A stretch of 64,000 nt of DNA from Nitrososphaeria archaeon (GCA_027078545.1 JALWXN010000004.1:892133-956132), one strand, 5' to 3'. Positions 39,292 to 55,460 are shown, numbered from the stretch's first letter. Numbers and translations are program-made. The notes: generated from the sequence alone by a model not told the origin.

Positions 39292-39381
39292 CCCCAAAAC
39301 CTATATTTTTTAACCATAGCCCCAAGACACTCCTCCAAAGCCACACCATTTAATCCCCATCATACAGGGATTATTATCCAC

Positions 39382-41295
39382 ATGGAGATGCTTTGGCACC
39401 CGCCCCAGGAGCTCGTCGAGAACAGTAATGTGATGAGGGTTATTAGGGAGCTTGGGCTGGACAGCTATGAAGACCTACTCAGGAGGAGTATAGAGGACCA
39501 TGAATGGTTCTGGGGATGGCTCCCAGAACTCCTAGGAATAGAGTGGTTCAGACCCTTCGACAAGGTCGTCGACTATAGCGAGGGCGTCGAGTGGGCTAGG
39601 TGGTACATAGGCGGCCTGATCAACGCTACATACAACGTGCTGGATAAACATATGGATAGCGAGGTGGAGAGGAGAACCGCCTTCATATGGCAGGGTGAGG
39701 ACGGATCGGTGGTGGAGTATAGCTATAGGAGGCTCTACAGCGAGGTCAACAGGCTAGCATCAGCCCTTAGGAGGAGGGGTGTGGAGAGGGGGGAGACCAT
39801 AGCCATGTATATGCCGATGATGCCGGAGACCGTGGTCGTCCTACTAGCAGCTATGAGGATCGGGGCGGTGCCCACACCCATATTCTCCGGCTTCGGTAAG
39901 GAGGCCGTTAGAACCAGGGTGGAGGACGCCCACTCCAGACTCATATTCACAACCGATGTTGGGTATAGGAGGGGGCGTAGGATAGACCTCCTAACAACCC
40001 TTAGAGAGGCGGTCGAGGGCCTAGACTATGTGGAGGACATCATAATAGTTAAGAGGGCCGGCTCAGATGGGACGGACTATAGAGACTTTATAGCCGAGGG
40101 CGGGTCATACCAGAGGCCCGAGGAGCTAGACCCCAACCACCCCGCCCTACTCCTATACAGCTCCGGAACAACTGGTAAGCCCAAGGGAATAGTGATCTCA
40201 CACATAGGCGCTTTGATCCAGCCGAGCAAGGAGATATACTTCAACCTAGACCTCAAGCCGGAGGACCTCTTCATGTGGATAACCGATATTGGCTGGATGA
40301 TGGGGCCATGGCAGATAATCGGTGTTGGAAACCTAGGGGGGACCCACGCAATCATGGAGGGGGCTCCAGACTATCCCGGGCCGGACAGGATATGGAGGTT
40401 CGTGGCTGAGCACAGGGTGACGATTCTAGGCGGCTCGGCAACACTCTTCCGGATGTTCAAGAAGTATGGGAGGAGATATGTCGAGATGCACGACACATCC
40501 TCTATAAGGATACTCGGGAACACGGGTGAGCCGATAGACGAGGACACCTGGAGATGGGTGATGGAGGTTATCGGGAGGTGGAGAGCCCCCATGATAAACC
40601 TGAGCGGGGGGACAGAGATATTTGGATGCCTAGTCCTACCCTCCCCCACAGTCCCCCTGAAGCCCTCAACCGTCTATGGACCCGGCCTAGGGATGGATGT
40701 AGACGTATTCAACGACGATGGGGAGCCCGTCAGGGAGGAGGTTGGATACCTAGTCTGCAAGACCCCAGTACCATCCATGACCAGGGGCTTCTGGCGAGAC
40801 CCGGAGAGATACCTCGAGACCTACTGGACCAGGTGGGAGGGCATCTGGTACCACGGCGACTGGGCCTACATCGACAAGGACGGCTACTGGTTCCTACTGG
40901 GTAGGGCCGACGACGTGATCAAGATAGCTGGGAAGCGCCTAGGCCCAGCTGAGGTAGAGACAATACTCAACTCACACCCCATGGTCGCCGAGTCCGCCTG
41001 TATAGGCGCCCCAGACCCGTTGAAGGGTGAGAAGCTGGTCTGCTTCGTAAAGACCGTTGGTGAGCCCGGGCCTGGACTAATAGATGAGCTAAGGGATATG
41101 GTGGGGGAGAGGCTCGGGAAGCCCTTCAGACCGGAGGAGATCTACATAGTCCCAGACCTACCCAGGACGAGGAGCGGCAAGATTATGAGGCGGGTTCTTA
41201 GGGCTATATATACGGATAGCCCGGTCGGCGACGTATCAACCCTGGAGAACCCGGAGGCACTCGAGGGGGTCAAGGAGGCTCTAGGACGCGCCTGA
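39382..41295 (+). CDS. acs: AMP-forming acyl-CoA synthetase (acetyl- or propionyl-CoA synthetase)
   Basis: AMP-binding YSSGTTGKPKG, adenylate-domain motifs, C-terminal PRTRSGKIMRR; 637 aa. Confidence 0.85.
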   Translation: MEMLWHPPQELVENSNVMRVIRELGLDSYEDLLRRSIEDHEWFWGWLPELLGIEWFRPFDKVVDYSEGVEWARWYIGGLINATYNVLDKHMDSEVERRTAFIWQGEDGSVVEYSYRRLYSEVNRLASALRRRGVERGETIAMYMPMMPETVVVLLAAMRIGAVPTPIFSGFGKEAVRTRVEDAHSRLIFTTDVGYRRGRRIDLLTTLREAVEGLDYVEDIIIVKRAGSDGTDYRDFIAEGGSYQRPEELDPNHPALLLYSSGTTGKPKGIVISHIGALIQPSKEIYFNLDLKPEDLFMWITDIGWMMGPWQIIGVGNLGGTHAIMEGAPDYPGPDRIWRFVAEHRVTILGGSATLFRMFKKYGRRYVEMHDTSSIRILGNTGEPIDEDTWRWVMEVIGRWRAPMINLSGGTEIFGCLVLPSPTVPLKPSTVYGPGLGMDVDVFNDDGEPVREEVGYLVCKTPVPSMTRGFWRDPERYLETYWTRWEGIWYHGDWAYIDKDGYWFLLGRADDVIKIAGKRLGPAEVETILNSHPMVAESACIGAPDPLKGEKLVCFVKTVGEPGPGLIDELRDMVGERLGKPFRPEEIYIVPDLPRTRSGKIMRRVLRAIYTDSPVGDVSTLENPEALEGVKEALGRA

Positions 41296-41802
41296 AGCCA
41301 AGAACCTGGAGGCCTCCCTCCTAGCTACGACCCTATCCAGTAGGAGGAGGGCCACACCTATACCCATTATCGGACCCCCAAAGACAATGGTAAAGTCGTA
41401 GTCAGGCTCAACCAAGATGTCCAGCAGCAACCTCGGCCTAGAACCATTCACCAACTCCTTGGTCGGCACCAGCTCGATATAGACATAGTAGGAGCTGGGA
41501 ACATCAGCCGTATACTCAAACTTCTCCAAACCCTCGACAACCCCTTCAAACAGCTTCTCAGGACCACCGCCAAACACACTCCTATAGATAGTTACGTAGG
41601 CCTCAGCCTCACTGATGATGCTTATCCTAACAACACCAGAGGTTAGCGAGACGTAGTTAACACCCTTCTCAGGGATTATCTCGTGGAACTCGTAGAGGAA
41701 GCTCTCCGAGATAGGCTCCTGAACACCCCCCAACACCCCCATTAGGACTATGGCTACACCGATGACGATGAAATATATCGCCAATACCCTCAACCAGATC
41801 AA
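41281..41802 (-). CDS. hypothetical membrane protein (third gene of ABC-2 operon)
   Basis: N-terminal TM helix IWLRVLAIYFIVIGVAIVLMGVL and C-terminal TM; 4-nt overlap with upstream permease. Confidence 0.45.
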   Translation of the reverse strand: MIWLRVLAIYFIVIGVAIVLMGVLGGVQEPISESFLYEFHEIIPEKGVNYVSLTSGVVRISIISEAEAYVTIYRSVFGGGPEKLFEGVVEGLEKFEYTADVPSSYYVYIELVPTKELVNGSRPRLLLDILVEPDYDFTIVFGGPIMGIGVALLLLDRVVARREASRFLASGAS

Positions 41803-42758
41803 TCCACCTCAACCCTCCTCAGGAAATAAGCAGCTAGGAGGATAACCATGAGGGATAGGCCAAGGATGACAAGGAGATAGACGGATAGGGCAACCAGGGA
41901 TCCGGGGGCATCCACATAGGGAGGAATTCCATAGGGGCTCATCATCAAGCCTCCTAGGAAACCCTCCCTCTCGAGTTCATCCAGTATGCCTAGTAGTGCT
42001 ACATAGCCAATGAATGGTGATGCTGTGGGCTCACCAAATTGAGGATTACCACTCCTTGTGAGCCATCTCTCAATATGTATGACAAGCTGTGTAAAGACCA
42101 TGTAGAGCACTGCACTCGAGAGTATGAAGGCAGGTATCTCCCTCCTCACGACCAAAGCGACGGAGAATGCTATGGATGACATCAGTATCAGCTCGGGGAG
42201 ACCCATTATAGACGCTAACAATAGAGAGGAATCGGGACGATAGAAGATGCTACCCACAACGAAGTAGGTCGAGGTCACGTAGAAAGCCACCATAACGACG
42301 TTGAAGAGAATCCTTCCAACGAAATACTCATCCCTGGTTATCGGTAGAGTCATATACCTCTTAAACACACCAGGCCTCAGCATCGACGAAGCCTCCATAG
42401 ACACATAAGCCGCGACCCCAAGTATCAGGAACATAGGCTCAATAGATACTCTCCAGACGGTCAGTAAGTGATGCGTAAAGCCGAAGATACCACTACGAAC
42501 CAAGATGTAGAGCTTCCTCTCAAGATATGCCAATCTATTCAGATTCATAACCACTTCATCGCCAGTGATTAGAGGGTCTCCGGATACCAAGATCTCTTCT
42601 AGACTTATTCTACTCCCTATACTTATCAAGCCACTTGTAACCAGTGGATAGAACATCAGTATCGTCGAGCCTACGAGAATCAGGAGATTGAGGAGGTTCA
42701 GCTGGCCTATCTCCATCCTCATAACCCTAAGTACAGCCCTAAGCCTCATCCCCACCAC
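41799..42758 (-). CDS. ABC transporter permease (ABC-2 type)
   Basis: Multi-pass membrane protein directly downstream of, and overlapping, the ABC ATPase gene. Confidence 0.6.
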   Translation of the reverse strand: MVGMRLRAVLRVMRMEIGQLNLLNLLILVGSTILMFYPLVTSGLISIGSRISLEEILVSGDPLITGDEVVMNLNRLAYLERKLYILVRSGIFGFTHHLLTVWRVSIEPMFLILGVAAYVSMEASSMLRPGVFKRYMTLPITRDEYFVGRILFNVVMVAFYVTSTYFVVGSIFYRPDSSLLLASIMGLPELILMSSIAFSVALVVRREIPAFILSSAVLYMVFTQLVIHIERWLTRSGNPQFGEPTASPFIGYVALLGILDELEREGFLGGLMMSPYGIPPYVDAPGSLVALSVYLLVILGLSLMVILLAAYFLRRVEVD

Positions 42759-43683
42759 CCAGCCGGAAGAACACCTGGGTCAAAGGATCCGGATAGAGGG
42801 AGACCTCCCAAACAGAGACCCCTAGATCACGGCAGAGCTCAAGAACCTCCATCAACGACTTACGTGGATCCCTCAGGAATATGTGGAGGCCAAGCTCATC
42901 TATATGATACTCCTCCACACCCCCTATTGTTGAGAGGCCTTCAACCAAGCCCTCCACATCACCATCCAGCCTGAAGAGGTAGTGGAACCTATCTAGACGT
43001 GAGAGGAGCTCCCTAAAGCCTCCAGACGCTACTATCCGTCCACTCCTTATGAAGACGAAGTTGTCGCAGATCGGTAGGAGGTGTGGCAGTATATGGGACG
43101 CTATGATAAAGCTCTTACCACTCCTGGACAGCTCCCTAATCAGGCCGACAAAGGTGATTATACTCTCTACATCCACGTTTGAGAAGGGCTCGTCAAGGAT
43201 GTAGAGGTCGACATCAGGGTTTAGAAGAGTTCTAGCCATCAGGAGTCTCTTAAACATACCCGTCGAGTAGCCTCCAACCCGCATCCCCAATGCCCAGTCA
43301 ATCCCGACCATCCTAGCAAGCTCGAGGATACGCCCCTCATGATCATCGATACCCATGGCCTGAGCCTCCACTTTCAACAGCTGATAGCCAGTCAGCCAAC
43401 CTGGAAACCCGATCTCATCAGGCATGACACCCATCCTGCTAAAAACCTCAGCCCTCTCCAACCAGGGGTCAAAGTCGAAAACCCTCACTACACCACTATC
43501 AGGCCTGATAAACCCACTAACAATATTGATCGTAGTAGTCTTACCAGCCCCATTAGGCCCTATAAAACCAAGGACACCCCCACCAAACTCCAGGGACAAC
43601 CCGTCCAGAGCCCTGACCTCACCAAAGCTCTTATACACATCCCTAAGCAGAAGAATCAAATGAAACCACCCCATCAAGACCAA
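42739..43683 (-). CDS. ABC transporter ATP-binding protein
   Basis: Walker A GPNGAGKTT, signature-like YSTGMFKR, Walker B LYILDEP, H-loop ASH. Confidence 0.85.
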   Translation of the reverse strand: MVLMGWFHLILLLRDVYKSFGEVRALDGLSLEFGGGVLGFIGPNGAGKTTTINIVSGFIRPDSGVVRVFDFDPWLERAEVFSRMGVMPDEIGFPGWLTGYQLLKVEAQAMGIDDHEGRILELARMVGIDWALGMRVGGYSTGMFKRLLMARTLLNPDVDLYILDEPFSNVDVESIITFVGLIRELSRSGKSFIIASHILPHLLPICDNFVFIRSGRIVASGGFRELLSRLDRFHYLFRLDGDVEGLVEGLSTIGGVEEYHIDELGLHIFLRDPRKSLMEVLELCRDLGVSVWEVSLYPDPLTQVFFRLGGGDEA

Positions 43684-43827
43684 TACTGCTCATGACAAAA
43701 TAAATCATCCATTAAAGACCTAACAAAAATGTATCTATGGAGACTATACCACAAACTACAAGTATATACAAAAAAGGCAGGGATAAGTACACAAACAAAT
43801 AAGTTATATGGGATTTAATTACATATC

Positions 43828-44349
43828 ATGAGAACCCTGATTATACTAGTGACAATAATATTAAGCCTACTAATCATAGGCAACATCTATGTACAGGGAA
43901 GGACAGCTCCAGAGTCCATCGACCCTAGATATGATGAGGACATGTATTATACGACGAGATACTTTCATTATACACCTTACTATATGTATGGAAAAGTCGT
44001 TGGATGGTACGTACCCAGGGATTCCGGCTACTTTAGGACTATACACGCTGGATCCGGTGCAGATCGATATAACAGAACACTGAGTTATTATAACCATATA
44101 GTTATGCTTCGTTTATGTGGAAGGGCCTTCGACTCCAATGGAAACATGATTGCCAATCCCTGCGTTACTGAAACCGCCACCCGCCAAGATCGGTATTTAT
44201 ATGAGGTGATTACCGTTGACTATGGAGCTGTAAGGGCGGTCAAGGCCCAGACCTATGTTTATGCCGTCTTCCACCATTATCATGATAGTACATTCGTAGT
44301 GTCATTTTCAGATAGCATTCCGTACAGCTACGTAGAGGTTAACTACTAG
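43828..44349 (+). CDS. small secreted Tyr-rich hypothetical protein
   Basis: Signal peptide MRTLIILVTIILSLLIIGNIYVQG; gene is markedly AT-richer than its surroundings. Confidence 0.5.
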   Translation: MRTLIILVTIILSLLIIGNIYVQGRTAPESIDPRYDEDMYYTTRYFHYTPYYMYGKVVGWYVPRDSGYFRTIHAGSGADRYNRTLSYYNHIVMLRLCGRAFDSNGNMIANPCVTETATRQDRYLYEVITVDYGAVRAVKAQTYVYAVFHHYHDSTFVVSFSDSIPYSYVEVNY

Positions 44350-44354
44350 GCGAG

Positions 44355-45218
44355 ATGAGGGGCCTAGCTATATCCCTCACCCTCCTATTTTTATTTATAC
44401 AGCCACACCCATACTTGATACCCCTCGACGATGAAGGCATATATATGAAATACTCTGGATTCTTCGGGCTTTACACTCCACTTTACGGGGTTTATAGTGG
44501 AGAGCCCCTTGAGCCAGAAATACTGGACGCTACCCCCTTTGTCGAAGGTGAATTGTTGGTAAGGCTCGATAAAAACTATATTGAATATGCCATCTACACC
44601 ATAGAGATCAGGTTTAAGGGGAGTTACGAGGCCCTTGAGAGGCTGGGCCTAGGCACCAGGTTCACTGTCTCTGTAAAGGTTTACAGGGAAGGGGGCATGA
44701 TAGACTTCCTGGGCCATCGCATCCCCTTCCTATTCGTAGCCGATCTTGACTATCTCTCCAATGGCCCCCATGAGATTCGAATATCTATAAACGGGACCTC
44801 CAACATCTCGATCAGTTTGCTGGAGCTTGAGGATAGGGTTGAGGAGATTGTTCTGAAGGGAGCATACTCTGTCCAGACCTTCGGATTGGACAATGGCCAC
44901 AAGTATCTGGCTGGTATATTTAATGACAAGGATAAGAGGATACTCGCCACTTATTCATATCGTGGATACGCCAGATTCTACAACTTCTTGGTTACGCCAC
45001 TGCTGAGGATGGGTATAGTCATCACCTTCCATGGCAACCTAGTAGATACTAATCTAGAGGGGGTTCAGAAACAGCCAAGCCCACTAGAGATGTATAGATC
45101 ACTACTATCCTCACTATTTGGGCCATTCGGGAGTGTCCTCTACTATACCAGCCTCATCACACTTTTAGGTCTGGTGATAGTGGCACTAGCTAAGCTAATT
45201 AGGAGGCTCAGAGGATGA
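44355..45218 (+). CDS. secreted hypothetical protein with C-terminal TM anchor (tandem paralog 1)
   Basis: Signal peptide MRGLAISLTLLFLFIQP; C-terminal TM LITLLGLVIVALAKLIRRLRG; clear similarity to the following ORF (e.g. LPFLLVIDMDYIS vs IPFLFVADLDYLS). Confidence 0.55.
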   Translation: MRGLAISLTLLFLFIQPHPYLIPLDDEGIYMKYSGFFGLYTPLYGVYSGEPLEPEILDATPFVEGELLVRLDKNYIEYAIYTIEIRFKGSYEALERLGLGTRFTVSVKVYREGGMIDFLGHRIPFLFVADLDYLSNGPHEIRISINGTSNISISLLELEDRVEEIVLKGAYSVQTFGLDNGHKYLAGIFNDKDKRILATYSYRGYARFYNFLVTPLLRMGIVITFHGNLVDTNLEGVQKQPSPLEMYRSLLSSLFGPFGSVLYYTSLITLLGLVIVALAKLIRRLRG

Positions 45219-45283
45219 GGAGATCAAGCCCTTGTTCATGATACCCCTCGCCCTAATAGTAACGAGTATAGCCGGGCCCCCAC

Positions 45284-46096
45284 ATGCTACCGCTACATGA
45301 CGAGGATACATTCTTCAGATATGAAGGATATTTCAGTGTTTATGAACCGCTTGGGGGGTTGTATGACTTGGATATTAATATTTCCTGGATCGATTTTAAG
45401 GGGTCGTTACTCGTGACTGTTGAGAAGAATTTTGTGGACTATGTGGTGTATGGCCTAGTTGTTGAGCCGTATGAAGAGATCCCTCCTGAGCTGGAGATGT
45501 TGATAGGTGTTAAGACTCTCGTAAAGGTCTCTAGGGTGGGTGGGAACATCTATATCGATGGTCAGGAGCTACCCTTCCTCCTAGTCATAGACATGGACTA
45601 CATCTCCAACGAGAACCCAGTTTATAACGTATCATTTGACGGCCTCACAAACTATACTATTTCCAACCTACGGCTGGTGGAGTCGGAAGGGGGGCTGATT
45701 CTAGAGACGAATCTCAGCATGCTATCTACGATCGTCCCAATAGGCCATGGATACCCATTCTCAATAACTTCACAGGGGAAGTATACCACCCGGATCGGTG
45801 TATATTCCCGGTATGGCTATGCAGTGAGTTACTCATATCTCATGATCCCCTTTTTCGAGAAGGGGCTCGCGATAGACTTTGTTGGTTGGCTCGTAGATAC
45901 CAATGCTGAGAGGGAGCCCGTGAATATGGTGGCGGTTCTCCTCGAGGGCTACCTTAGGTTCCTGGTGTTCAGCCTTGGGCCTCTGGGCATCGCGATATAC
46001 TATGGCACTATGATTCTCGCCGCTGGTCTAGTAGCCGCCTTTGTCTACTGGCTTGTCAGGAGGCTTAGGTGGGGTTTTGGCGTGGCCGCCACCTAG
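45284..46096 (+). CDS. secreted hypothetical protein with C-terminal TM anchor (tandem paralog 2; signal peptide encoded in a different frame, possible frameshifted pseudogene)
   Basis: Paralogous to 44355-45218 but lacks an in-frame signal peptide. A signal-peptide-like ORF MIPLALIVTSIAGPPHATAT lies at 45238-45300 in the -1 frame; C5 run at 45277-45281 is the likely shift site. Confidence 0.45.
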   Translation: MLPLHDEDTFFRYEGYFSVYEPLGGLYDLDINISWIDFKGSLLVTVEKNFVDYVVYGLVVEPYEEIPPELEMLIGVKTLVKVSRVGGNIYIDGQELPFLLVIDMDYISNENPVYNVSFDGLTNYTISNLRLVESEGGLILETNLSMLSTIVPIGHGYPFSITSQGKYTTRIGVYSRYGYAVSYSYLMIPFFEKGLAIDFVGWLVDTNAEREPVNMVAVLLEGYLRFLVFSLGPLGIAIYYGTMILAAGLVAAFVYWLVRRLRWGFGVAAT

Positions 46097-46970
46097 ATAG
46101 TCTCCTGTCGAACTCCTCGTACTCCTCGTATCCTATTAGTCTGTAGAACTCCCTCCTCTCCATCAGCCTGTCTAGGAAGGGTTTCTGCGTCCCGTGCTCC
46201 CTGAGGGCCTGGTATATCTCCAACGCGTTCTTGGCGTTGGCCCTGAATACGGTGACTGGGAAGACGACGAACTTCACCCCTACACTCCTAAATTCCTCGT
46301 AGCTGATGTATGGCGTCCTCCCAAACTCCGTCATATTGGCTAGGATGGGTGCGTCGACCTCCTCGACGAAGACCCTATACTCCTCTAGAGTCTCCAGGGC
46401 CTCCGGGAATATTATGTCCGCCCCGGCCTCCACGTATAGCTTGGCCCTCCTCAGAGCCTCCTCCAGCCCATATACATTCCTCGCATCAGTCCTCGCCACT
46501 ATCAGGAAGTCCCTACTCCTCCTAGCCTCCACAGCCGCCCTGATCTTCCTGGCCATATCTATAGGGTCCACCAGCTCCTTCCCGGAGAGGTGTCCACACT
46601 TCTTGGGGAGGACCTGGTCCTCGATCTGTATAGCGGCTGCCCCCGCATCCTCCAGCTCCCTCACGGCTCTAGCAACGTTTAAGACCTCCCCAAAACCTGT
46701 GTCGGCATCGACTATCAGTGGGATACCTACGACCTTAGTGATCAGCCTTGTGAAGAATACGAGTTCGGAGAGGGTGATAAGCCCTAGATCAGGCATGGCT
46801 AGGCTCCCGGTCAGGGCAGCCCCGCTCAGATATATAGCCCTATAGCCCACCTTCTCAGCCAGCAGGGCTGTGAAGGGGTTGTATACACCGGGGACTATAT
46901 AGGCCTCCCCATCCTCCACCAGCTCCCTCAGAAGCGGCTTTACGTCACCAGTGGGTAGGAGATGCCTCAT
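46065..46970 (-). CDS. prpB: 2-methylisocitrate lyase (isocitrate lyase/PEP mutase family)
   Basis: Family motifs IVDADTGFG and KKCGH, TIM-barrel length about 300 aa; adjacent to prpD. Confidence 0.8.
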   Translation of the reverse strand: MRHLLPTGDVKPLLRELVEDGEAYIVPGVYNPFTALLAEKVGYRAIYLSGAALTGSLAMPDLGLITLSELVFFTRLITKVVGIPLIVDADTGFGEVLNVARAVRELEDAGAAAIQIEDQVLPKKCGHLSGKELVDPIDMARKIRAAVEARRSRDFLIVARTDARNVYGLEEALRRAKLYVEAGADIIFPEALETLEEYRVFVEEVDAPILANMTEFGRTPYISYEEFRSVGVKFVVFPVTVFRANAKNALEIYQALREHGTQKPFLDRLMERREFYRLIGYEEYEEFDRRLSRWRPRQNPT

Positions 46971-46971
46971 A

Positions 46972-48354
46972 CTAGATCACCAGTAGCTCGAGGAGCTCGT
47001 AGTAGTTGTGCTTCTCGAAGTTCATCGTGACCTCTATAATCTCCTCTATCACGTCTTCGGGGTAGTAGGGCCTGAGTAGTCGGAAGACCTTCTCCCTCAG
47101 TAGGTCGTCGACGTTGTGGCCGGAGCCTGGGTATCCCCTCGGCCTTGTGACGAGGCTCTCTAGGACGGTGCCATCCCTAAGCCTGACAACCACCCTGTTC
47201 GGCACCTCCCTCGGATAGAGCCTATCGAGCTCCGGGTCGACCTTGACATCCATCTTGGCCATAACCCTCTTGATATCCTCGTCCCTAAGCTTATCGTCGC
47301 TATAGGCGTCTAGCCAGATATCGCCGTGTAGAAGGGTGTATGCCACTATATATGGGAGGCTGTGGTCAGCCGTCTCCCTATTCTCCGGCCTCCACTTCTC
47401 GGGATGCTTAACTATTATGTCGTAGGTAGCCTGCACAGTATAGACCTCCACCCTCTCAATCTCCTCCGGCCTGAGGGGCCTACCACCAAGGAGCTCGAGC
47501 ACTGCGTCGACAGCCGACTGGGCGTGATACTCCACCGGGTGGAACTTCATATACGTCCTCAGTATACCGGTGGGCTCAGGCCTCTCCCTAAGCTCCTTTA
47601 TAGGGCCCGGGTCGAACTCTATACCCAGCTGGTTAATAAACCCCATCTCACCCGTGAAGGGCTCCGCAGGCCCCTCATAACCCGCCCTAGCCAGGTATGT
47701 CGCGTACATCGCGTGTCTACATGCATCGGCGGCTGCCGAGGCCTTCCACATCGTGATCCTACCCGCACGGGTCTGCCTCAGAGCTATGTGGGGGACGGTC
47801 GCTATGGCCAATGCCTCTGCAGCCATCTCCTTAGAGAGTTTTAATAGGTTTGAGAGGGCGGCCACAGCTGCTATCATGGTGAAGTTGACGTGGTCCCACC
47901 CCTTCACACGGAGGGAGGCAGAGTCGCATAGACGGACACCCACCTCATAACCAACTGCTATAGCCGTCAATAGATCGGCCTCCGGACTCCCAGACTCCTC
48001 CAACGCGGCAGCCAAGACACCTATCATGTCGCTGGGGTGTAGGGGCTCCTTCGATAGGTAGGTATCGTTGAAGTCGAGGGCCCGGGTCATGGTGCTGTTT
48101 AGGAAGCCGGCATACTCTGGGAGGGTTGTGAAGTGGGTGAACCATATTGTCGAGCCGAGCTCCAAGGGGTATAGGCCTATGAACGCCTTCCTCAAGACCT
48201 GGACGGGCTTGAAGGGTAGAGAGGCTGCCGAGACGGCTATGGAATCTAGGAGGCGCCTCTTAGCCTCCAGTACAGCCTCTATAGGTATGTCCTCCCAGGA
48301 TATGCTCGTTGCATACTCCGCGATAGCCTCCTGTATATAGTCGTACCGACTCAT
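46972..48354 (-). CDS. prpD: 2-methylcitrate dehydratase (MmgE/PrpD family)
   Basis: MmgE/PrpD-like N-terminus SWEDIPIEAVLEAKRRLLDSIAV and overall length; internal ATG 48354 used, upstream extension in track rejected. Confidence 0.8.
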   Translation of the reverse strand: MSRYDYIQEAIAEYATSISWEDIPIEAVLEAKRRLLDSIAVSAASLPFKPVQVLRKAFIGLYPLELGSTIWFTHFTTLPEYAGFLNSTMTRALDFNDTYLSKEPLHPSDMIGVLAAALEESGSPEADLLTAIAVGYEVGVRLCDSASLRVKGWDHVNFTMIAAVAALSNLLKLSKEMAAEALAIATVPHIALRQTRAGRITMWKASAAADACRHAMYATYLARAGYEGPAEPFTGEMGFINQLGIEFDPGPIKELRERPEPTGILRTYMKFHPVEYHAQSAVDAVLELLGGRPLRPEEIERVEVYTVQATYDIIVKHPEKWRPENRETADHSLPYIVAYTLLHGDIWLDAYSDDKLRDEDIKRVMAKMDVKVDPELDRLYPREVPNRVVVRLRDGTVLESLVTRPRGYPGSGHNVDDLLREKVFRLLRPYYPEDVIEEIIEVTMNFEKHNYYELLELLVI

Positions 48355-48430
48355 GTAAACAGAATCCCAGAGAGCGTTATATGAATAGTGGCTATCGAGG
48401 AATATTTGTAAAAGAGGGGGAGAATAGTGG

Positions 48431-49144
48431 CTATGCACTGAGCCCGCTTAGGAACTCGCTGAGCGGGACATCCCTCACCTGGGAAGCCCAGCTGGGTACT
48501 GGAACGTCACCCGCAAAGGGTTTGAGGCTAACTCTCCCATCCTCCACCTTGAAGACTAGTAGGTCTGGGATGTATACCGGCTTATCCCTGAGGAGGCCGG
48601 CCATAAACGCCATATTGGATGGTATACCCTCAGGACCCATCCTCCCGTTTATCGCTATTATGACCGTCTCCCCAGGCCTGTATAGCACGTCCGTACTCTT
48701 CACAGCCATCTTCCCAGTATCGGGGTCGTAGCCATATGACCAGAGGAAGATGTAGAACCTATCCTCTGGGAACTCGCCCCTGAGAACCTCCTTCACCTCC
48801 AGGAGTACAAGTGTATTCAAACGCTTGACCTCCCGTGAGCCCAGCCTCTCAACAGTTATGTAGGTGCTCAGCTCCCTAACCTCAGCCAATACGAGGGCTA
48901 TACCCCTATCATTCAGAAACTCCTCAAGATCCTCTGGGAAGACGTCATGCCTAATCAGCGGCTCCGTAGTTACCACATACTCGCTTGGTAGGGGGCTCTC
49001 ACCCAAGGGTCTAGGCCCCTCTCCAGGGACATGTTGATAGACGGTGACGCTGGGAATATCCTGCTGGAAGAGGGATACGCCCGGGAATAATAGGATCAAC
49101 GTGACAGTCACTAGGACCACCGCTATAAGTGGGAGGCCCTTCAT
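48431..49144 (-). CDS. hypothetical membrane-anchored protein
   Basis: N-terminal TM/signal anchor MKGLPLIAVVLVTVTLILLF; no recognisable domain; sits between prpC and prpD. Confidence 0.45.
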   Translation of the reverse strand: MKGLPLIAVVLVTVTLILLFPGVSLFQQDIPSVTVYQHVPGEGPRPLGESPLPSEYVVTTEPLIRHDVFPEDLEEFLNDRGIALVLAEVRELSTYITVERLGSREVKRLNTLVLLEVKEVLRGEFPEDRFYIFLWSYGYDPDTGKMAVKSTDVLYRPGETVIIAINGRMGPEGIPSNMAFMAGLLRDKPVYIPDLLVFKVEDGRVSLKPFAGDVPVPSWASQVRDVPLSEFLSGLSA

Positions 49145-49230
49145 CTAATCCCCATCATGCACCTATTTCTAGCAAAGTATATTAGTTTAGAGATTTGTAC
49201 ACCGATAATTCTAGGGTAGATCGTTAATGG

Positions 49231-50466
49231 ATGGTTAAGCCATTCCCCAAAACAGTTGTCGACATAGCCTATACCCCGGAATATATCGCCGGCCTAGGGA
49301 TGAATATCTACATGGCGGAGGAGAGGGTGTCTATCTATAGGGGGTTGAAGAACGTCTATGTGGCTGAGTCGAGGATCTGCCTGATCGACCATGAGAGGGG
49401 GAAGATCTACTACTATGGATATGACCTGGATGAGCTGGCCCAGAAGAGTAGTTATGAGGAGGTCCTCTACCTACTCCTCCATGGAAGGCTACCCACAAGG
49501 AGGGAGTATCAGGAGTTCCTGGATAGGATAAGGGGGTCATTGCGGCTAGAGCCTGAGATCCTAGACGTTATGAGACGGATCCCAAGGGATATCGATATGA
49601 TGGAGGCCCTACGAACAGTGGTCTCATACATCGGTAACCTCCGGAGCCGGGATCCGGAGTATACGAGGGATGATGTAGTGGACTACACCGTCGACCTCGT
49701 GGCAAAGATGCCCAGCATAATAGGGGGGCTATACAGGATGTGGAGGGGTTTGGAGCCCCTCGAGCCCAGGGAGGATCTAAGCCTCGCCGCCAACCTCCTA
49801 TACCTCATAACCGGGAGGGAGTATGACGAGAGGGATGTTAGGGGCCTAGACATGAGCCTAATCCTCTATGCAGAACACGGCATGAACGCATCCACCTTCG
49901 CAGCCGTAGTGGTCGCATCAACAGGTAGCGACTACTACTCCTCCATAGTCGCGGGTATAGGGGCGCTGAGGGGCCCACTACATGGGTACGCCAACACCGG
50001 TGCATTGGAGCAGTTCCTAGAGATAGACGACCCCTCAAATGTGGAGAGGTGGTTCAAGGAGAATATCGAGAGTAGGAGGAGGCGGCTCATAGGGTTTGGC
50101 CACAGGCTATACAGGATACACGACCCGAGGGCGAAGCACTACAGGAGGTGGCTAGAGGAGAATAGGGAGAGGTTTGACGAGGAGACCCGGCGGGTATACG
50201 AAACAGCTATGAAGCTATACAACGTGGCTATGAACAGCTTCCTAGCGGAGAAGGGGATATACCCCAACTGCGACTACTGGAGCGCACTACTATACTACGC
50301 CCTGAAACTCCCAAAGGAGGTCTACACACCAATATTCGCAATGTCACGAATAGCCGGGTGGAGCAGCCACATAGCTGAGTACCGAGAGGACAACATACTG
50401 ATAAGGCCGAAGGCATACTACGTCGGCGAGAGAGACAAAAAGTACGTGCCCCTTGATGAGAGGTAG
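49231..50466 (+). CDS. prpC: citrate synthase family protein (likely 2-methylcitrate synthase)
   Basis: Citrate synthase motifs LHGYANTGA (catalytic His region), GFGHRLY, MSRIAGWSSH; divergent from the prpD-prpB unit. Confidence 0.85.
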   Translation: MVKPFPKTVVDIAYTPEYIAGLGMNIYMAEERVSIYRGLKNVYVAESRICLIDHERGKIYYYGYDLDELAQKSSYEEVLYLLLHGRLPTRREYQEFLDRIRGSLRLEPEILDVMRRIPRDIDMMEALRTVVSYIGNLRSRDPEYTRDDVVDYTVDLVAKMPSIIGGLYRMWRGLEPLEPREDLSLAANLLYLITGREYDERDVRGLDMSLILYAEHGMNASTFAAVVVASTGSDYYSSIVAGIGALRGPLHGYANTGALEQFLEIDDPSNVERWFKENIESRRRRLIGFGHRLYRIHDPRAKHYRRWLEENRERFDEETRRVYETAMKLYNVAMNSFLAEKGIYPNCDYWSALLYYALKLPKEVYTPIFAMSRIAGWSSHIAEYREDNILIRPKAYYVGERDKKYVPLDER

Positions 50467-50470
50467 ACAG

Positions 50471-51697
50471 TTATAGCTTAACCAAGACTATTTTGGAGGA
50501 GCCAATCTGGGCCTTATACAACACTACATATACTTCTCCATTATTCTCAACAAGGCCTAGCAGTCTATAGCTCTCACTGATGACCTCGTTGTCAAGCACC
50601 CCGCCACCAGGTATCTTCACCAGTGCCAGATAGGTATCGGCGAAACGCTGTCCAACCAGCAGATAATTATCACCTCCTATGTGTATCATGCTCGTTATCA
50701 GTACTGCCTCCTCAAAGGGACTTGGTAGGATTCCGACTGCCGGGGATAGGGCCTCGAGATCTATGAACTGGACCTCGCTACTTTGATCGGCATAGATCAC
50801 CGTGAAGAATATCTTTCCATCGGCGGCTCCCAGGGGAAGTACGTTTACGACGGGTGTCTCCCCACCCTGTATAGGGTATTCGAAGACTGTCTTGTTCTCA
50901 ACTATGTTATACACCATGACCTTGAAGCTGGACCCGTATCTAGTTACCGCGATAAAGTGGTCACCCACTACCCTGAACCTTATGGCACTATCAATCCTAG
51001 TTAGGAACTTCTTCCCCGAGTCATCCACAAGGTATATCTCGTCATAGGGATATAGGGTCACGACCCTAACCAGCAAATCATCACCAAAACGATATAGGCT
51101 TATAGGGGAGATACCGAAGTAGTAGGATCCTTCTACGACCAGCTCACCATCTACTAGACGTATAATACTAACATTACCATCGACCACAGCGATGATACGA
51201 TCCTCCACGACAAAGACTCTCGGGAAGGCACCGCCATCCAGTGTAATAGATGCCACTAACTCCCAGTCAATTCCATATACCCCGATCCATAGCTCGCTCT
51301 CCAAGTCGTTTGATATTAGGGCTGGTACCACCACCATATCGTCTAGGAACCGGGGCTCCAGAAATCCCAGTCTCGAATATTCGAGATGGGTGGGAAAACT
51401 CTCTAGAGTGCGGGTATCTACCTGACCATCACGTAGCTCGACGAGTACTGGATACCCCCCGGGTTCACCATCCAGACCCACGATATATAGTTTACCGTCA
51501 ACACTCCCAACGTCGCTTGGGAAATTAAGGGTTTTAACAACGATACTCTCTAGAGTTATCCCCGACACGGGAGGCCCAGTAGCTGGTATGCCAGGGAATA
51601 TTGGGAGCCAGCCCATCAACACTATCAGGATGACTATCAGACCCATGGCCACGAAGGCAGCGATTGGGAGCCTCCTATACCGATGATTTTCACCCAC
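50471..51697 (-). CDS. hypothetical membrane-anchored beta-rich protein
   Basis: N-terminal TM LPIAAFVAMGLIVILIVLMGWL, beta-strand-rich remainder, no motif recognised. Confidence 0.4.
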   Translation of the reverse strand: MGENHRYRRLPIAAFVAMGLIVILIVLMGWLPIFPGIPATGPPVSGITLESIVVKTLNFPSDVGSVDGKLYIVGLDGEPGGYPVLVELRDGQVDTRTLESFPTHLEYSRLGFLEPRFLDDMVVVPALISNDLESELWIGVYGIDWELVASITLDGGAFPRVFVVEDRIIAVVDGNVSIIRLVDGELVVEGSYYFGISPISLYRFGDDLLVRVVTLYPYDEIYLVDDSGKKFLTRIDSAIRFRVVGDHFIAVTRYGSSFKVMVYNIVENKTVFEYPIQGGETPVVNVLPLGAADGKIFFTVIYADQSSEVQFIDLEALSPAVGILPSPFEEAVLITSMIHIGGDNYLLVGQRFADTYLALVKIPGGGVLDNEVISESYRLLGLVENNGEVYVVLYKAQIGSSKIVLVKL

Positions 51698-51832
51698 GCC
51701 TATCTTTACCTCCTTACTGAAATTCTATCTCATTAAGGTGTGTAAATAATCTATGCTGATGTTATTGCTATACCGAATAGTGATGAACCATATTTAAGAT
51801 CGGCTGTGGATAGGCCAGCAACTCCTAATAAA

Positions 51833-53065
51833 CTATGTGCCTCTTGGCAGTCCTAGTACGTGTCTCGCTATGTAGTTCAGGGCGAGTTGCTGGGTTACCG
51901 GTGCTAGTCTGAGTAGGTTTATCTCTCTCCACCACCGCTCTACATCGAACTCCCTTGCATAGCCGTAGCCTCCGAAGGTCTGCATAGCCCAGTACACCGC
52001 CTCTATCCCCGCCTCTATAGCTACGTACTTCGCTATGTTGCTGTTCCTCCCAACCTCTGATAGGCCTGTAGACCTCGAGACGACCTCGTCAAAGCTCTTC
52101 GGATCCCTCGGCGGGGGCAGCCTGTCATAGGTTGCCGCGGCTCTATATGCTAGGAGGCGTGCCCCCTCGAGCATGGCGTAGGACCTGGCTAGTGGGTGCT
52201 GGACAGCCTGGTAGGAGCCTATTGGCCGGTCGAAGACGACCCTGTTCTTGGCATACTCGACAGCCCTTGACAAGGCTAGGTATCCGATGGCAACAGCACC
52301 TATTGAGAAGCCTATCCTCTCAGGGTTGAGTATGTCGAGGAGGACGTACCAACCAGCGTCGAGTGGGCCTAGGAGGTTCTCCTCGGGTATCCTTAGATCC
52401 TCTATGTAGACCTCGCAGGACTTGCTATAGTTTATCCCATGCTTAGGGATGGGGCTATACCTCACATTCTTATTCGGCATATCCACTATGAAGAGTGATA
52501 GGCCGAGGCTCCTCCTCCCAGCCTCCTCGGGGGTCTTAGTGCGGGCGACGAGTATGAAGGCCCGAGCCCTATCTATCCCGCTTATGAAGACCTTCCTCCC
52601 ATTAACGACGTACTCGTCACCCTCCTTCACGGCTGTCGTCTTTATCGATAATGTGTTTGACCCTACGTCCGGCTCGGTAAGGGCTAGGGCCCCCTCGATC
52701 CTCCCCTCCGCTATGCCTGGGAGATACTTCTCCTTCTGCTCCTTAGTACCGAACCTAGCTATGGGCAGTGCCAGGAATATCTCGGTAAGCATTATGTACC
52801 ATACACCGGCCATCCCCGCACCTCCCCTCACGAGGCCCTCTATAGCGACGGCCAGCTCCTCCAGTCCATAGCCGCTCCCCCCATACTCCTGGGGTATAAC
52901 GATACCCATGAACCCCTGCTCGGCTATCGCCCTGAAGAACTCCTCCGCAAACTCCTCCCTAAGATCCTTCTCCCTCCAGTACTCGGGTGGGAACTGGCTT
53001 GAGACCTCGTAGGCCGTCCTGTATATAAGCTCCTTATCCCCTGATAGGTCGGGAGGTATCTCCAT
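51833..53065 (-). CDS. acyl-CoA dehydrogenase
   Basis: ACAD N-, middle- and C-domains (ALTEPDVGSN, GRKVFISG, C-terminal helical domain with QTFGGYGY). Confidence 0.85.
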   Translation of the reverse strand: MEIPPDLSGDKELIYRTAYEVSSQFPPEYWREKDLREEFAEEFFRAIAEQGFMGIVIPQEYGGSGYGLEELAVAIEGLVRGGAGMAGVWYIMLTEIFLALPIARFGTKEQKEKYLPGIAEGRIEGALALTEPDVGSNTLSIKTTAVKEGDEYVVNGRKVFISGIDRARAFILVARTKTPEEAGRRSLGLSLFIVDMPNKNVRYSPIPKHGINYSKSCEVYIEDLRIPEENLLGPLDAGWYVLLDILNPERIGFSIGAVAIGYLALSRAVEYAKNRVVFDRPIGSYQAVQHPLARSYAMLEGARLLAYRAAATYDRLPPPRDPKSFDEVVSRSTGLSEVGRNSNIAKYVAIEAGIEAVYWAMQTFGGYGYAREFDVERWWREINLLRLAPVTQQLALNYIARHVLGLPRGT

Positions 53066-53098
53066 AGGAGACTATATCCAGCCCGGATGATTTAAGCC

Positions 53099-53461
53099 CT
53101 AGGGGGCGAGGGCGAGTAGGAGTAGCTGATAAGCCACAAACAATATGGTCAGGGGGATCAAGAGATACTTAAGACTCTCTAAGATACCCCTGTACTCCCT
53201 CATGGCTAGGAATGCTAGGTATGCCCCAACACCCAGGAGGAATATCATGACGAGTATATCCCCATCGACCCCAAAAGTATCCATGACCCACCTCCCGAAG
53301 AGGGTATATATGATGAATAGTATGGAGAAGTGGACGGCCAGCATAGCGCCCTTCCTAGCCCCACCAGCCTCTGAACCCCTATAGATGGTTATCCACCCCC
53401 TGGGAGCCCCAACAATATACATTGTACAATTTAGATGTGGATATAAGGCCCCAGCACCCAA
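53099..53461 (-). CDS. hypothetical small membrane protein
   Basis: Three predicted TM helices; no motif. Confidence 0.35.
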   Translation of the reverse strand: MGAGALYPHLNCTMYIVGAPRGWITIYRGSEAGGARKGAMLAVHFSILFIIYTLFGRWVMDTFGVDGDILVMIFLLGVGAYLAFLAMREYRGILESLKYLLIPLTILFVAYQLLLLALAP

Positions 53462-53600
53462 CTATATAGCCGTTGACCAAAGACCGTCTATGGATGGCTC
53501 ACCACACTCTGATTAGACGGTTTCCGGATAGAAAAGGGTAGCTTGATACTGGTGACTCTAAATATGTATGTGGTGGATAGGATGATCAGGGTGGGTCTCC

Positions 53601-53765
53601 ATGATGATCCAGATTAGTTTCGACGATGAGGCGAATGCACTATATGTAAAGTTGAGGGAGGATGCTGTTGAAGAGTCTAGGGAGGTCGCTCCAGGAGTCA
53701 TAATAGACTTTAATAGGGAGGGGAGGGTTGTCGGTATAGAGGTTCTGAGGGATATAAGTGGGTAA
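53601..53765 (+). CDS. small DUF2283-like protein (not in ORF track because under 60 aa)
   Basis: 54-aa ORF MMIQISFDDEANALYVKLREDAVEESREVAPGVIIDFNREGRVVGIEVLRDISG; pattern fits the short DUF2283 family. Confidence 0.45.
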   Translation: MMIQISFDDEANALYVKLREDAVEESREVAPGVIIDFNREGRVVGIEVLRDISG

Positions 53766-53795
53766 CGCCTCGGCTCCCGATGGCTGGTAAGCGCT

Positions 53796-54248
53796 CTATA
53801 CTGGGATTATCGCTACATAGTGATACCCCTCAGGCTCCCTCTGCCTAACCTCGAGCCTCACCTCAATATCCGGCTTCAGTGAGTCGAAATCACCCTCCAC
53901 TAGGCCTAAGACCTTGAAGCCGTCGATCTCGGCTACGCCCACTATGTAGTCTGGGTAGTGGCTATGTGTCTTCGGCTTAACATTTATCTCAGTATATGTC
54001 ACAAGCCTGCCCACCCCCTCTATCCTCCTCTCCTCCAGATCCCTAGAGCCGCAGCTCCTACATATGGGGCCGGGTGGGTACTGCCTATACCCACAGGCCC
54101 TACATATCTGTCCAAGTATTACGCCCTCCTCCAGCATCCTATAATACTTCTCCAGGCCGCCTAGTGAGCTCCTCAGGCTCAGTGGGAAGACCCTCTGATC
54201 CTCGAGGACCGGCATACCAGTCTTCTCATCCCTTGATATCCTACCCAT
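53796..54248 (-). CDS. DUF35 zinc-ribbon/OB-fold protein (thiolase-associated)
   Basis: CRACGYRQYPPGPICRSCGS rubredoxin-like zinc ribbon followed by OB-fold region; immediately downstream of the thiolase gene. Confidence 0.75.
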   Translation of the reverse strand: MGRISRDEKTGMPVLEDQRVFPLSLRSSLGGLEKYYRMLEEGVILGQICRACGYRQYPPGPICRSCGSRDLEERRIEGVGRLVTYTEINVKPKTHSHYPDYIVGVAEIDGFKVLGLVEGDFDSLKPDIEVRLEVRQREPEGYHYVAIIPV

Positions 54249-54254
54249 AACGCC

Positions 54255-55418: not shown

Positions 55419-55460
55419 CCCAATCCACATGATTGTATAGGGGGTTTACAATCCATAAGT

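What the first reader, a model, noticed from the sequence alone, without database searches (positions are those of the whole stretch)
45238..46096. Second tandem paralog has its signal peptide in a different frame, split at a C5 homopolymer
ORFs 44355-45218 and 45284-46096 are clear paralogs (secreted domain plus C-terminal TM anchor). The first has an N-terminal signal peptide. The second has none in frame, but a signal-peptide-like mini-ORF (MIPLALIVTSIAGPPHATAT) sits at 45238-45300 in the -1 frame. Deleting one C from the C5 run at 45277-45281 would join them as MIPLALIVTSIAGPHMLPLHDED..., which aligns to paralog 1 (PHPYLIPLDDEG). This is a recent pseudogene, a sequencing error at a homopolymer, or slippage-prone on/off switching.
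Basis: seen in the sequence. Interest (0 to 1): 0.55.

Follow-up and report, generated by a model that had tools for sequence, protein, structure and literature searches.

The report
Frameshifted surface-protein gene, recent pseudogene
One extra C in a short run of Cs has cut the export signal off the second of two neighbouring surface-protein genes in this uncultured hot-vent archaeon; close relatives have the intact gene, so this is most likely an ordinary recent gene inactivation.

Summary
The run at 45277-45281 is C5. A 20-22-codon signal-peptide-like ORF (45232/45238-45300) lies one frame behind a 270-codon ORF (45284-46096). That ORF is a 34%-identical paralog of the intact gene at 44355-45218. 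Two close strains (GCA_027037395.1 and an ENA metagenome scaffold) carry C4 at this site. More distant Geothermarchaeota orthologs are also uninterrupted, so C5 is a derived 1-bp insertion. An independent re-assembly of run SRR14510437 reproduces C5 in a 14-kb contig identical to the window. Twenty neighbouring genes holding 54 homopolymers of 5 or more bases show no frameshift, so a sequencing error is unlikely. The window copy also has a lost stop codon (TAG to TGG) and three replacements at otherwise conserved residues. This suggests relaxed constraint, but the numbers are small. C5 is unremarkable here: the window has 164 G/C runs of 5 or more, and two G6 runs in the same gene are stable. 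No frameshift stimulator is present and the shift is not conserved. Phase variation and programmed frameshifting are therefore poorly supported. Verdict: a recent strain-specific pseudogene or null allele in a hypervariable, copy-number-variable surface-protein island. Interest is low.

The parts
44355..45218 (+). Paralog 1 (287 aa), intact. It has an N-terminal signal peptide, a beta-rich ectodomain and a C-terminal GPFG-TM-RRLRG anchor.
   Evidence: ORF list. 34% identity, E=1e-38 to the repaired paralog 2. Orthologs P0009 (87%) and P0010 (80%) in other strains.
45223..45225 (+). ATC codon, in frame with the signal-peptide mini-ORF. Strains L002 and L012 have ATG here (start of MKPLFMIPL...), 4 nt after the stop of paralog 1. 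It may be a lost native start codon, but the polarity is unresolved.
   Evidence: Alignment of window, L002 and L012; L002 sequence.
45232..45300 (+). Orphaned signal-peptide ORF (TTG 45232 or ATG 45238; MFMIPLALIVTSIAGPPHATAT*), ending at TGA 45298-45300.
   Evidence: hydropathy. Its first 16 residues are identical to the N-terminus of the intact P0001/P0004.
45277..45281 (+). C5 run, the site of the derived +1 C insertion. It is C4 in L002 and L012.
   Evidence: The same C5 is in the Logan re-assembly L001.
45284..46096 (+). Body of paralog 2 (270 codons from the first ATG): ectodomain plus GPLG-TM-RRLR anchor, with no signal peptide in frame. A gene caller took only a 242-aa piece of it (P0005).
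   Evidence: 96-97% identical to the intact P0001/P0004.
46070..46072 (+). TGG codon where L002, L012 and L005 have the TAG stop. This window-specific stop loss adds WGFGVAAT and lengthens the convergent overlap with the methylisocitrate lyase gene.
43828..44349 (+). 173-aa predicted secreted protein, the first gene of the plus-strand cluster. Its N-terminal two-thirds are deleted in strains L002 and L012.
   Evidence: hydropathy.
41281..43683 (-). Divergently transcribed ABC exporter genes: 173-aa protein (41281-41802), ABC-2-type permease (41799-42758) and DrrA-type ATPase (42739-43683).
   Evidence: ATPase: TIGR01188 drrA E=6e-42; permease: weak DrrB match E=0.006.
43650..45880 (.). Hypervariable island: intergenic region, 173-aa gene, paralog 1 and the ectodomain of paralog 2. 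It lies in a backbone that is 88-93% identical to L005.
   Evidence: Identity in 150-bp bins; BLASTN break points.

Best explanation
This is a genuine, recent, strain-specific 1-bp insertion (C4 to C5) at codons 14-16 of the second of two tandem paralogous genes. These genes encode signal-peptide-bearing, C-terminally membrane-anchored surface proteins of a Candidatus Geothermarchaeota archaeon. The insertion puts the signal peptide in a frame that stops six codons later. The 270-codon remainder has no export signal, so normal translation cannot deliver the ectodomain to the cell surface. In this strain the gene is a null allele, or at best severely hypomorphic, that is, a young pseudogene. 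The loss is tolerated because the locus is a fast-evolving island with variable gene content, and an intact paralog lies immediately upstream. Shown here: the lesion, its derived polarity, its reproducibility in a second assembly, and the intact state in relatives. Inferred: loss of function, tolerance through redundancy, and relaxed constraint.
For: (1) Two close strains have C4 and an uninterrupted gene whose product begins MFMIPLALIVTSIAGPHMLPLHDED. These are L002 (GCA_027037395.1) and L012 (ENA ERZ23491340). (2) More distant orthologs P0002 and P0003, and remote family members P0011, P0013 and P0014, all have an in-frame hydrophobic N-terminus, so the intact state is ancestral. (3) Logan's independent assembly of run SRR14510437 gives a 14,177-bp contig 100% identical to window 38304-52480, including C5. 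(4) All 20 other genes in the 21-kb block syntenic with L005 align as single in-frame HSPs, although they contain 54 homopolymers of 5 or more bases and 200 of 4 or more. (5) The window copy alone has TAG to TGG stop loss and R>W, D>N and A>V at residues conserved in L002, L012 and L005 (R and D also in L004). In the conserved tail the window branch has 4 nonsynonymous and 2 synonymous changes. The L002/L012 branch has none, and the long L005 branch has 2 nonsynonymous and 9 synonymous. The adjacent lyase 3' end shows equal rates on both branches. (6) dS between the window and L002 in this gene is only 0.036, so the lesion is young. (7) The locus tolerates gene loss. L002 and L012 lack most of the 173-aa gene. 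L013 and L014 have one chimeric gene. L004, L005 and L011 have one paralog. (8) The 90% cluster holds only P0001, P0004 and the 242-aa truncated call P0005, so no repaired version of the window allele is on record.
Against: No read-level data were available, so the C count rests on two assemblies that probably derive from the same reads. The evidence for relaxed constraint is weak statistically (Fisher p=0.11; 6 vs 0 changes on sister branches). Overall dN/dS against L002 is 0.40, no higher than the intact paralog's 0.48. CCC-C is an intrinsically +1-slippery motif in bacteria (PMC4519876). A +1 slip on CCC 45277-45279 would recreate the ancestral protein exactly, so some residual expression cannot be excluded. 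C4 versus C5 between strains is also what a switch would look like.
Confidence: 0.8

Rival explanations
1. Sequencing or assembly artefact: the true genome has C4, the gene is intact, and the extra C is a homopolymer miscall.
For: The lesion is a 1-bp length change in a homopolymer, the classic error type. The very long source contig (1.14 Mb) could come from long reads. No reads could be inspected.
Against: A k-mer-based re-assembly of SRR14510437 (Logan) reproduces C5 within a 14-kb contig that has no difference from the window. None of 20 syntenic genes with 54 runs of 5 or more bases is frameshifted, and the two G6 runs inside the same gene are in frame. The copy also carries substitution-type lesions that homopolymer errors do not explain, namely the stop loss and conserved-site replacements.
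Confidence: 0.08
2. Phase variation: the C tract is a contingency locus that switches the surface protein ON (C4) and OFF (C5) by slipped-strand mispairing.
For: The tract length differs between close strains (C4 in L002 and L012, C5 in the window). The tract lies at the 5' end of a gene for a hypervariable surface protein, the typical target of such switches. Short tracts such as A6/A7 in Listeria inlA can mutate about 1000-fold faster than average sites (PMC2831843).
Against: The tract is only 4-5 bases, whereas recognised poly-G/C contingency tracts are 7 or more (e.g. C. jejuni, PMC4965091). It does not stand out: the window holds 164 G/C runs of 5 or more, with a maximum of 6. The longer G6 tracts at 45353 and 45689 in the same gene are invariant in all three strains. 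More distant orthologs do not keep a C tract here, since their N-terminal sequences differ. Only one OFF allele has been seen, and it has accumulated further lesions. [quoted passage not shown]
Confidence: 0.05
3. Translational rescue: ribosomes shift +1 on CCC-C (P-site tRNA-Pro slips from 45277-79 to 45278-80). The next codon read is then CAC, and the ancestral protein ...AGPHMLPL... is made, either as a selected programmed frameshift or as leaky expression.
For: The 0-frame reads GGG-CCC-CCA-CAU. CC[C/U]-[C/U] is a documented +1-slippery motif, with up to about 1% shifting at CCC-C in an E. coli reporter (PMC4519876; also PMC7577736). The shifted product would equal the natural protein of the C4 strains. 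The Pro-Pro context could pause the ribosome (this last point is inference).
Against: The frameshift is not conserved: all relatives are in frame. There is no rare or stop codon in the A site; the 0-frame stop is six codons downstream. No SD-like stimulator lies just upstream. The downstream RNA is no more structured than shuffles (z=-0.70). In Archaea only one cellular programmed frameshift is established, a -1 event in S. solfataricus fucA1 with an A-AAA-AAT heptamer (PMC8211752, PMC1616953). An expected yield of 1% or less amounts to a hypomorph, not a regulated gene.
Confidence: 0.04
4. The downstream ORF is still used on its own. It would be translated from ATG 45284 (or by re-initiation after the 22-codon upstream ORF) as a signal-less, tail-anchored protein with a new, cytoplasm-facing role.
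For: A 270-codon ORF with an ATG remains open, and its dN/dS against L002 is below 1 (0.40). The mini-ORF stop overlaps the region just after that ATG, which could allow coupling.
Against: No SD-like sequence precedes 45284. Every family member, including remote ones, has an N-terminal hydrophobic signal, so the ectodomain is built for the outside. Most of the dN/dS signal predates the lesion. The window branch shows excess replacements and loss of the stop codon.
Confidence: 0.03

Closest known systems
Frameshift-disrupted genes (young pseudogenes) in prokaryotic genomes
   Same: A single-base indel in a short mononucleotide run splits one gene into two ORFs in different frames. Intact orthologs exist in close relatives. 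A redundant paralog is present. Further lesions are beginning to accumulate.
   Different: Nothing essential. The gene family itself is uncharacterised and confined to a small archaeal lineage: 6 cluster representatives in 1.84 billion proteins.
Homopolymer contingency loci (phase variation by slipped-strand mispairing; e.g. Campylobacter/Neisseria poly-G/C tracts, Listeria inlA A6/A7)
   Same: A length change of a mononucleotide run near the 5' end of a surface-protein gene turns the reading frame off. The tract length differs between strains.
   Different: The tract is only 4-5 bases and is not longer than the genome background. Longer tracts in the same gene are stable. There is no evidence of reversibility or within-population variation. 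The OFF allele carries additional, non-reversible lesions.
+1 ribosomal frameshifting at CCC-C / programmed frameshifting (E. coli prfB, tRNA-Pro slippage; archaeal -1 PRF in fucA1)
   Same: The junction contains the slippery quadruplet CCC-C, and a +1 slip would restore the ancestral protein. As in fucA1, an archaeal gene is split into a short upstream and a long downstream ORF with an overlap.
   Different: The shift site is absent from orthologs, which are in frame. No stimulatory element was found. The direction and motif differ from the only proven archaeal cellular case (-1 at A-AAA-AAT).
LolA/LolB-like and lipoprotein half-barrel folds (for the protein family, not the frameshift)
   Different: The model has only moderate confidence (pLDDT 67). 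There is no sequence similarity to any Pfam or NCBIfam family. The protein is anchored by a C-terminal TM helix rather than being a soluble carrier or lipoprotein.

Membership tests
Frameshift pseudogene / disrupted gene | Close homologs encode the two ORFs as one continuous reading frame | tested here: met
   P0001 (277 aa) and P0004 (279 aa) span both ORFs. Their DNA in L002 and L012 differs at the junction only by C4 versus C5.
Frameshift pseudogene / disrupted gene | The interrupted state is derived, not ancestral | tested here: met
   The outgroup orthologs P0002 and P0003, the paralog, and remote members P0011, P0013 and P0014 all have an in-frame signal peptide.
Frameshift pseudogene / disrupted gene | The lesion is real in the DNA, not a sequencing error | tested here: inconclusive
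   The same C5 is in the independent Logan assembly, and there is no other frameshift in 20 syntenic genes. Reads could not be inspected.
Frameshift pseudogene / disrupted gene | Relaxed selective constraint after the lesion | tested here: inconclusive
   In the conserved tail the window branch has 4 nonsynonymous changes (including stop loss) and 2 synonymous. The sister branch has 0, and the outgroup branch has 2 and 9. Fisher p=0.11. Whole-gene dN/dS is 0.40 against 0.48 for the intact paralog.
Phase-variable contingency locus (slipped-strand mispairing) | A hypermutable repeat tract clearly longer than the genomic background (about 7 or more for G/C runs) | tested here: not met
   The tract is C5 (C4 in relatives). 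The window has 164 G/C runs of 5 or more and none above 6. The threshold is taken from PMC4965091.
Phase-variable contingency locus (slipped-strand mispairing) | Tract-length polymorphism within a population, or recurrent changes among close strains | tested here: inconclusive
   There is one C4/C5 difference among three strains. The G6 tracts in the same gene are invariant. No repaired window-type allele is in the 15-billion-protein collection. The metagenome scan for the site found nothing. Within-sample variation was not testable.
Phase-variable contingency locus (slipped-strand mispairing) | Reversible ON/OFF switching of expression | not testable with these tools
   This needs cultures or deep read data.
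Programmed +1 ribosomal frameshift | Frameshift site and two-ORF arrangement conserved in orthologs | tested here: not met
   All orthologs are in frame.
Programmed +1 ribosomal frameshift | Slippery codon that allows P-site tRNA re-pairing in the +1 frame | tested here: met
   The sequence is GGG-CCC-CCA, with CCC 45277-79 and CCC 45278-80. The motif is described in PMC4519876.
Programmed +1 ribosomal frameshift | Stimulators: a slow or stop codon in the A site, an upstream SD-like element, or downstream structure | tested here: not met
   The A-site codon is CCA, the 0-frame stop is six codons later, and no GGAGG-like element lies adjacent. The 101-nt downstream fold has z=-0.70. Codon usage and tRNA abundance were not measured.
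Sec-type secreted, C-terminally anchored surface protein | N-terminal hydrophobic signal plus C-terminal TM helix and basic tail | tested here: met
   Hydropathy maxima of 2.45-2.9 at the N-termini of the repaired protein and its homologs. AF2 helices at 230-246 and 248-276, and an RRLR end. No dedicated signal-peptide predictor was available.
Archaeosortase substrates (PGF-CTERM and related sorting domains) | Match to a curated C-terminal sorting-domain model | tested here: not met
   No NCBIfam hit at E<=1 for P0001, P0002, P0003 or paralog 1. The family-wide GP[LFY]G-TM-basic tail is only a resemblance.
LolA/LolB-like fold | Significant structural match of a confident model | tested here: inconclusive

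The most novel reading that the evidence does not exclude
The C4/C5 tract behind the signal peptide is a working ON/OFF device for a hypervariable surface protein of an uncultured thermophilic archaeon. It would act either by reversible slipped-strand mutation or by low-level +1 slippage of tRNA-Pro on CCC-C that restores the ancestral protein. That would be an early example of phase variation, or of cellular +1 recoding, in Archaea.
Probability: 0.06. Interest if true: 0.6.

Novelty: new member of a known kind. Interest (0 to 1): 0.15.

Why it matters
The finding matters little in itself. It is a correctly spotted single-base frameshift that should be annotated as a pseudogene (or 'frameshifted') rather than as a 242-aa protein, which is how gene callers currently record it (P0005). 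It also flags a small strain-variable island. That island holds an orphan family of anchored surface proteins and an ABC-2 exporter whose permease varies along with them. The island may be a site of diversifying selection, for example from virus or environment interactions, in Geothermarchaeota. If the rescue or switch reading were true, it would add a rare case of recoding or phase variation in Archaea. The evidence does not favour that.

Tried and rejected
1. The exact-protein look-up of ORF 45284-46096 found nothing, because gene callers used a shorter 242-aa start.

2. The metagenome-contig scan with the protein alignment, and a DNA pattern allowing C4-C6 at the site, both found nothing. 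No further strain variants could be obtained from that collection.

3. The genome-contig scan gave only one locus, L011. It names the lineage (Candidatus Geothermarchaeota) but is an L005-type single-copy locus.

4. Pfam and NCBIfam scans gave no family for paralog 1, paralog 2, the 173-aa proteins or the orthologs.

6. I first read L012 as carrying several frameshifts in neighbouring genes. The DNA alignment showed these are runs of N in a scaffold, so that idea was dropped.

7. A paper search for the run accession SRR14510437 found nothing, so the sequencing platform is unknown.

8. I considered using P0003's near-identical C-terminal tail as evidence of recent recombination. At the DNA level L002 and L005 are 93.8% identical there, with almost all differences synonymous. 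Purifying selection on the TM tail explains it, so recombination is not required.

The contig was reached through its neighbour P0009.

Full report
**1. What is in the sequence**

Window 45277-45281 is a run of five C. An ORF starting at TTG 45232 or ATG 45238 encodes M(FM)IPLALIVTSIAGPPHATAT and stops at TGA 45298-45300. A 270-codon ORF starts at ATG 45284, one frame ahead, and runs to 46096. The gene immediately upstream (44355-45218, 287 aa) is a paralog of it: 34% identity over 272 residues, E=1e-38. The alignment begins at the P-[YH]-x-[IL]-P-L-x-[DE]-E motif that follows the signal peptide of paralog 1.

The mini-ORF is as hydrophobic as the N-termini of the paralog and of orthologs (11-residue Kyte-Doolittle maxima 2.45 versus 2.5-2.9). 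The N-terminus of the 270-codon ORF is hydrophilic. Removing one C gives MFMIPLALIVTSIAGPHMLPLHDED....

**2. Relatives show that the join is real**

The closest is P0001, 277 aa and 96% identical. It begins MFMIPLALIVTSIAGPHMLPLHDED, which is exactly the predicted fusion. Its DNA (L002, contig JALWAV010000117.1 of MAG GCA_027037395.1) is identical to the window around the junction, except that the run is C4.

A second strain, on ENA scaffold ERZ23491340/JOHN19-1 scaffold_6542 (L012; protein P0004, 279 aa), also has C4. Across the whole paralog 1-paralog 2 stretch, L012 differs from the window by only a 3-nt indel and this 1-nt indel.

More distant orthologs all have an in-frame hydrophobic N-terminus followed by the same motif. 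These are P0002 (67%), P0003 (52%) and the remote family members P0011, P0013 and P0014. The intact state is therefore ancestral, and C5 is a derived one-base insertion in the window's lineage.

The lineage is Candidatus Geothermarchaeota, according to the record title of locus L011.

**3. Is it a sequencing error?**

Reads were not available. Logan's independent assembly of run SRR14510437 contains a 14,177-bp contig that is 100% identical to window 38304-52480, C5 included.

The 21-kb block that is syntenic with L005 (GCA_027060065.1) is about 88% identical in DNA. All 20 other genes in it align to their orthologs as single in-frame segments. Together these genes contain 54 homopolymers of 5 or more bases and 200 of 4 or more. 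The disrupted gene itself holds two G6 runs (45353, 45689) that are in frame and identical in the three strains.

The assembly is therefore not prone to homopolymer errors. I put the artefact explanation at about 8%.

**4. Other lesions in the same copy**

At 46070-46072 the window has TGG where L002, L012 and L005 have the TAG stop. This adds eight residues (WGFGVAAT) and lengthens the convergent overlap with the methylisocitrate lyase gene.

I assigned changes in the conserved C-terminal tail (45881-46072) to branches by parsimony, with L005 as outgroup:

| Branch | Nonsynonymous | Synonymous |
|---|---|---|
| Window | 4 (R>W, D>N, A>V, stop>W) | 2 |
| L002/L012 | 0 | 0 |
| L005 (long branch) | 2 | 9 |

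Fisher's exact test on the window and L005 rows gives p=0.11. In the adjoining lyase 3' end, the window and L002 are equally distant from L005.

The pattern suggests relaxed constraint in the window's copy only, but it is not statistically secure. Whole-gene dN/dS against L002 is 0.40 (7 synonymous, 9 nonsynonymous changes). That is no higher than the 0.48 of the intact paralog 1. dS is only 0.036, so the lesion is young.

Five codons upstream of the TTG, L002 and L012 have an in-frame ATG (MKPLFMIPL...) 4 nt after the stop of paralog 1. This would give the signal peptide a normal basic n-region. The window has ATC there. I could not polarise this difference.

**5. Switch or recoding?**

*Phase variation.* C5 is ordinary in this window, which has 62 C5, 72 G5, 17 C6 and 13 G6 runs and none longer than 6. 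Recognised poly-G/C contingency tracts are 7 or more bases (PMC4965091). [quoted passage not shown] The longer G6 tracts in this gene do not vary between strains. The 90% protein cluster contains only P0001, P0004 and the truncated call P0005, so no repaired version of the window allele is on record.

*Ribosomal frameshifting.* The 0-frame reads GGG-CCC-CCA-CAU. A +1 slip of P-site tRNA-Pro on CCC-C would give ...AGPHMLPL..., which is the ancestral protein. CC[C/U]-[C/U] is a known +1-slippery motif, with up to about 1% shifting at CCC-C in an E. coli reporter (PMC4519876; PMC7577736).

Against this, the shift site is not conserved, because the orthologs are in frame. The A-site codon is not a stop, and the 0-frame stop lies six codons downstream. 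The downstream RNA folds no better than shuffled sequence (z=-0.70). The only established cellular programmed frameshift in Archaea is the -1 event in fucA1 (PMC8211752, PMC1616953). Trace rescue is conceivable, but a selected mechanism is unlikely.

**6. Context**

The gene lies in a small cluster. On the plus strand are a 173-aa secreted protein (43828-44349), paralog 1 and paralog 2. Divergently transcribed on the minus strand are a DrrA-type ABC ATPase, an ABC-2-type permease and a 173-aa protein.

Against L005, the backbone is 86-94% identical in 150-bp bins. Two blocks with sharp edges are far more divergent:

- the permease body, 41850-42600, at 52-77% identity;
- 43650-45880, at below 50% or unalignable. 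Identity jumps back to 92% exactly where the TM tail of paralog 2 begins.

Gene content varies between strains:

- L004, L005 and L011 have a single paralog-2-type gene.
- L013 and L014 have a single gene with a paralog-1-type body and a paralog-2-type tail (P0010).
- L002 and L012 have both paralogs but lack the N-terminal two-thirds of the 173-aa gene.

Losing one member in the window's strain fits this pattern.

**7. The protein family**

There is no Pfam or NCBIfam match. A full HMM scan of 1.84 billion representatives found six proteins. All share the signal peptide, an LP(L/F)x(D/E)E motif, an LVDTN motif, and a C-terminal GP[LFY]G motif followed by a TM helix and a basic tail.

**8. Verdict**

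Sequencing error (about 0.08), phase variation (about 0.05), +1 translational rescue (about 0.04) and an independent signal-less product (about 0.03) remain as minor alternatives. It is a new instance of a well-known kind of event, and interest is low.

Noticed in passing
window 41850-42600 and 43650-45880 (compared with L005:6650-12300): There are two sharply bounded hypervariable blocks in a backbone that is otherwise 86-94% identical. One is the body of the ABC-2 permease (52-77% identity). The other covers the secreted 173-aa protein, paralog 1 and the ectodomain of paralog 2 (below 50% or unalignable). Identity returns to 92% exactly at the TM tail of paralog 2. The permease and the surface proteins seem to vary together.
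   Followed up: partly
L013:1087-1971 and L014:713-1570 (protein P0010); L004, L005, L011: The paralogs vary in copy number. Some strains have one gene with a paralog-1-type body and a paralog-2-type C-terminal tail next to the lyase gene, which looks like an unequal-crossover product. More distant relatives have only a paralog-2-type gene.
   Followed up: partly
window 43900-44208 versus L002 and L012: Strains L002 and L012 have the intact paralog 2 but lack about 310 bp covering the N-terminal two-thirds of the 173-aa secreted-protein gene. Only residues 115-173 remain alignable, at 73%. Different strains have therefore lost different members of the cluster.
   Followed up: partly
window 45940-46096 and 45060-45218; P0011, P0013, P0014: All family members end with GP[LFY]G, a TM helix of about 23 residues and a basic tail (RRLR). 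This tripartite C-terminus is reminiscent of archaeosortase/exosortase sorting signals. No curated CTERM model matches it.
   Followed up: partly
window 44355-46096 versus L002: Synonymous divergence differs fourfold between the adjacent paralogs (dS 0.154 for paralog 1, 0.036 for paralog 2). This suggests mosaic ancestry or recombination within the island.
   Followed up: no
window 46065-46096: The stop loss in paralog 2 lengthens its convergent overlap with the 3' end of the methylisocitrate lyase gene (46065-46970, minus strand) from 8 nt in relatives to 32 nt. The G/A difference at 46071 is synonymous for the lyase (CCC/CCT Pro).
   Followed up: yes
window 46065-50466 and 51833-55430: The island is embedded in a conserved block. 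This block holds methylcitrate-cycle genes (methylisocitrate lyase, PrpD-type dehydratase, citrate synthase family) and acyl-CoA metabolism genes (acyl-CoA dehydrogenase, thiolase, ChsH2-like OB/zinc-ribbon protein), with an acetyl-CoA synthetase-type ligase upstream at 39382-41295.
   Followed up: no
L012:2700-5500: Genes that appear split on ENA scaffold L012 (ACS-type ligase, permease, 173-aa protein) are interrupted by runs of N from scaffolding. They are not real frameshifts.
   Followed up: yes
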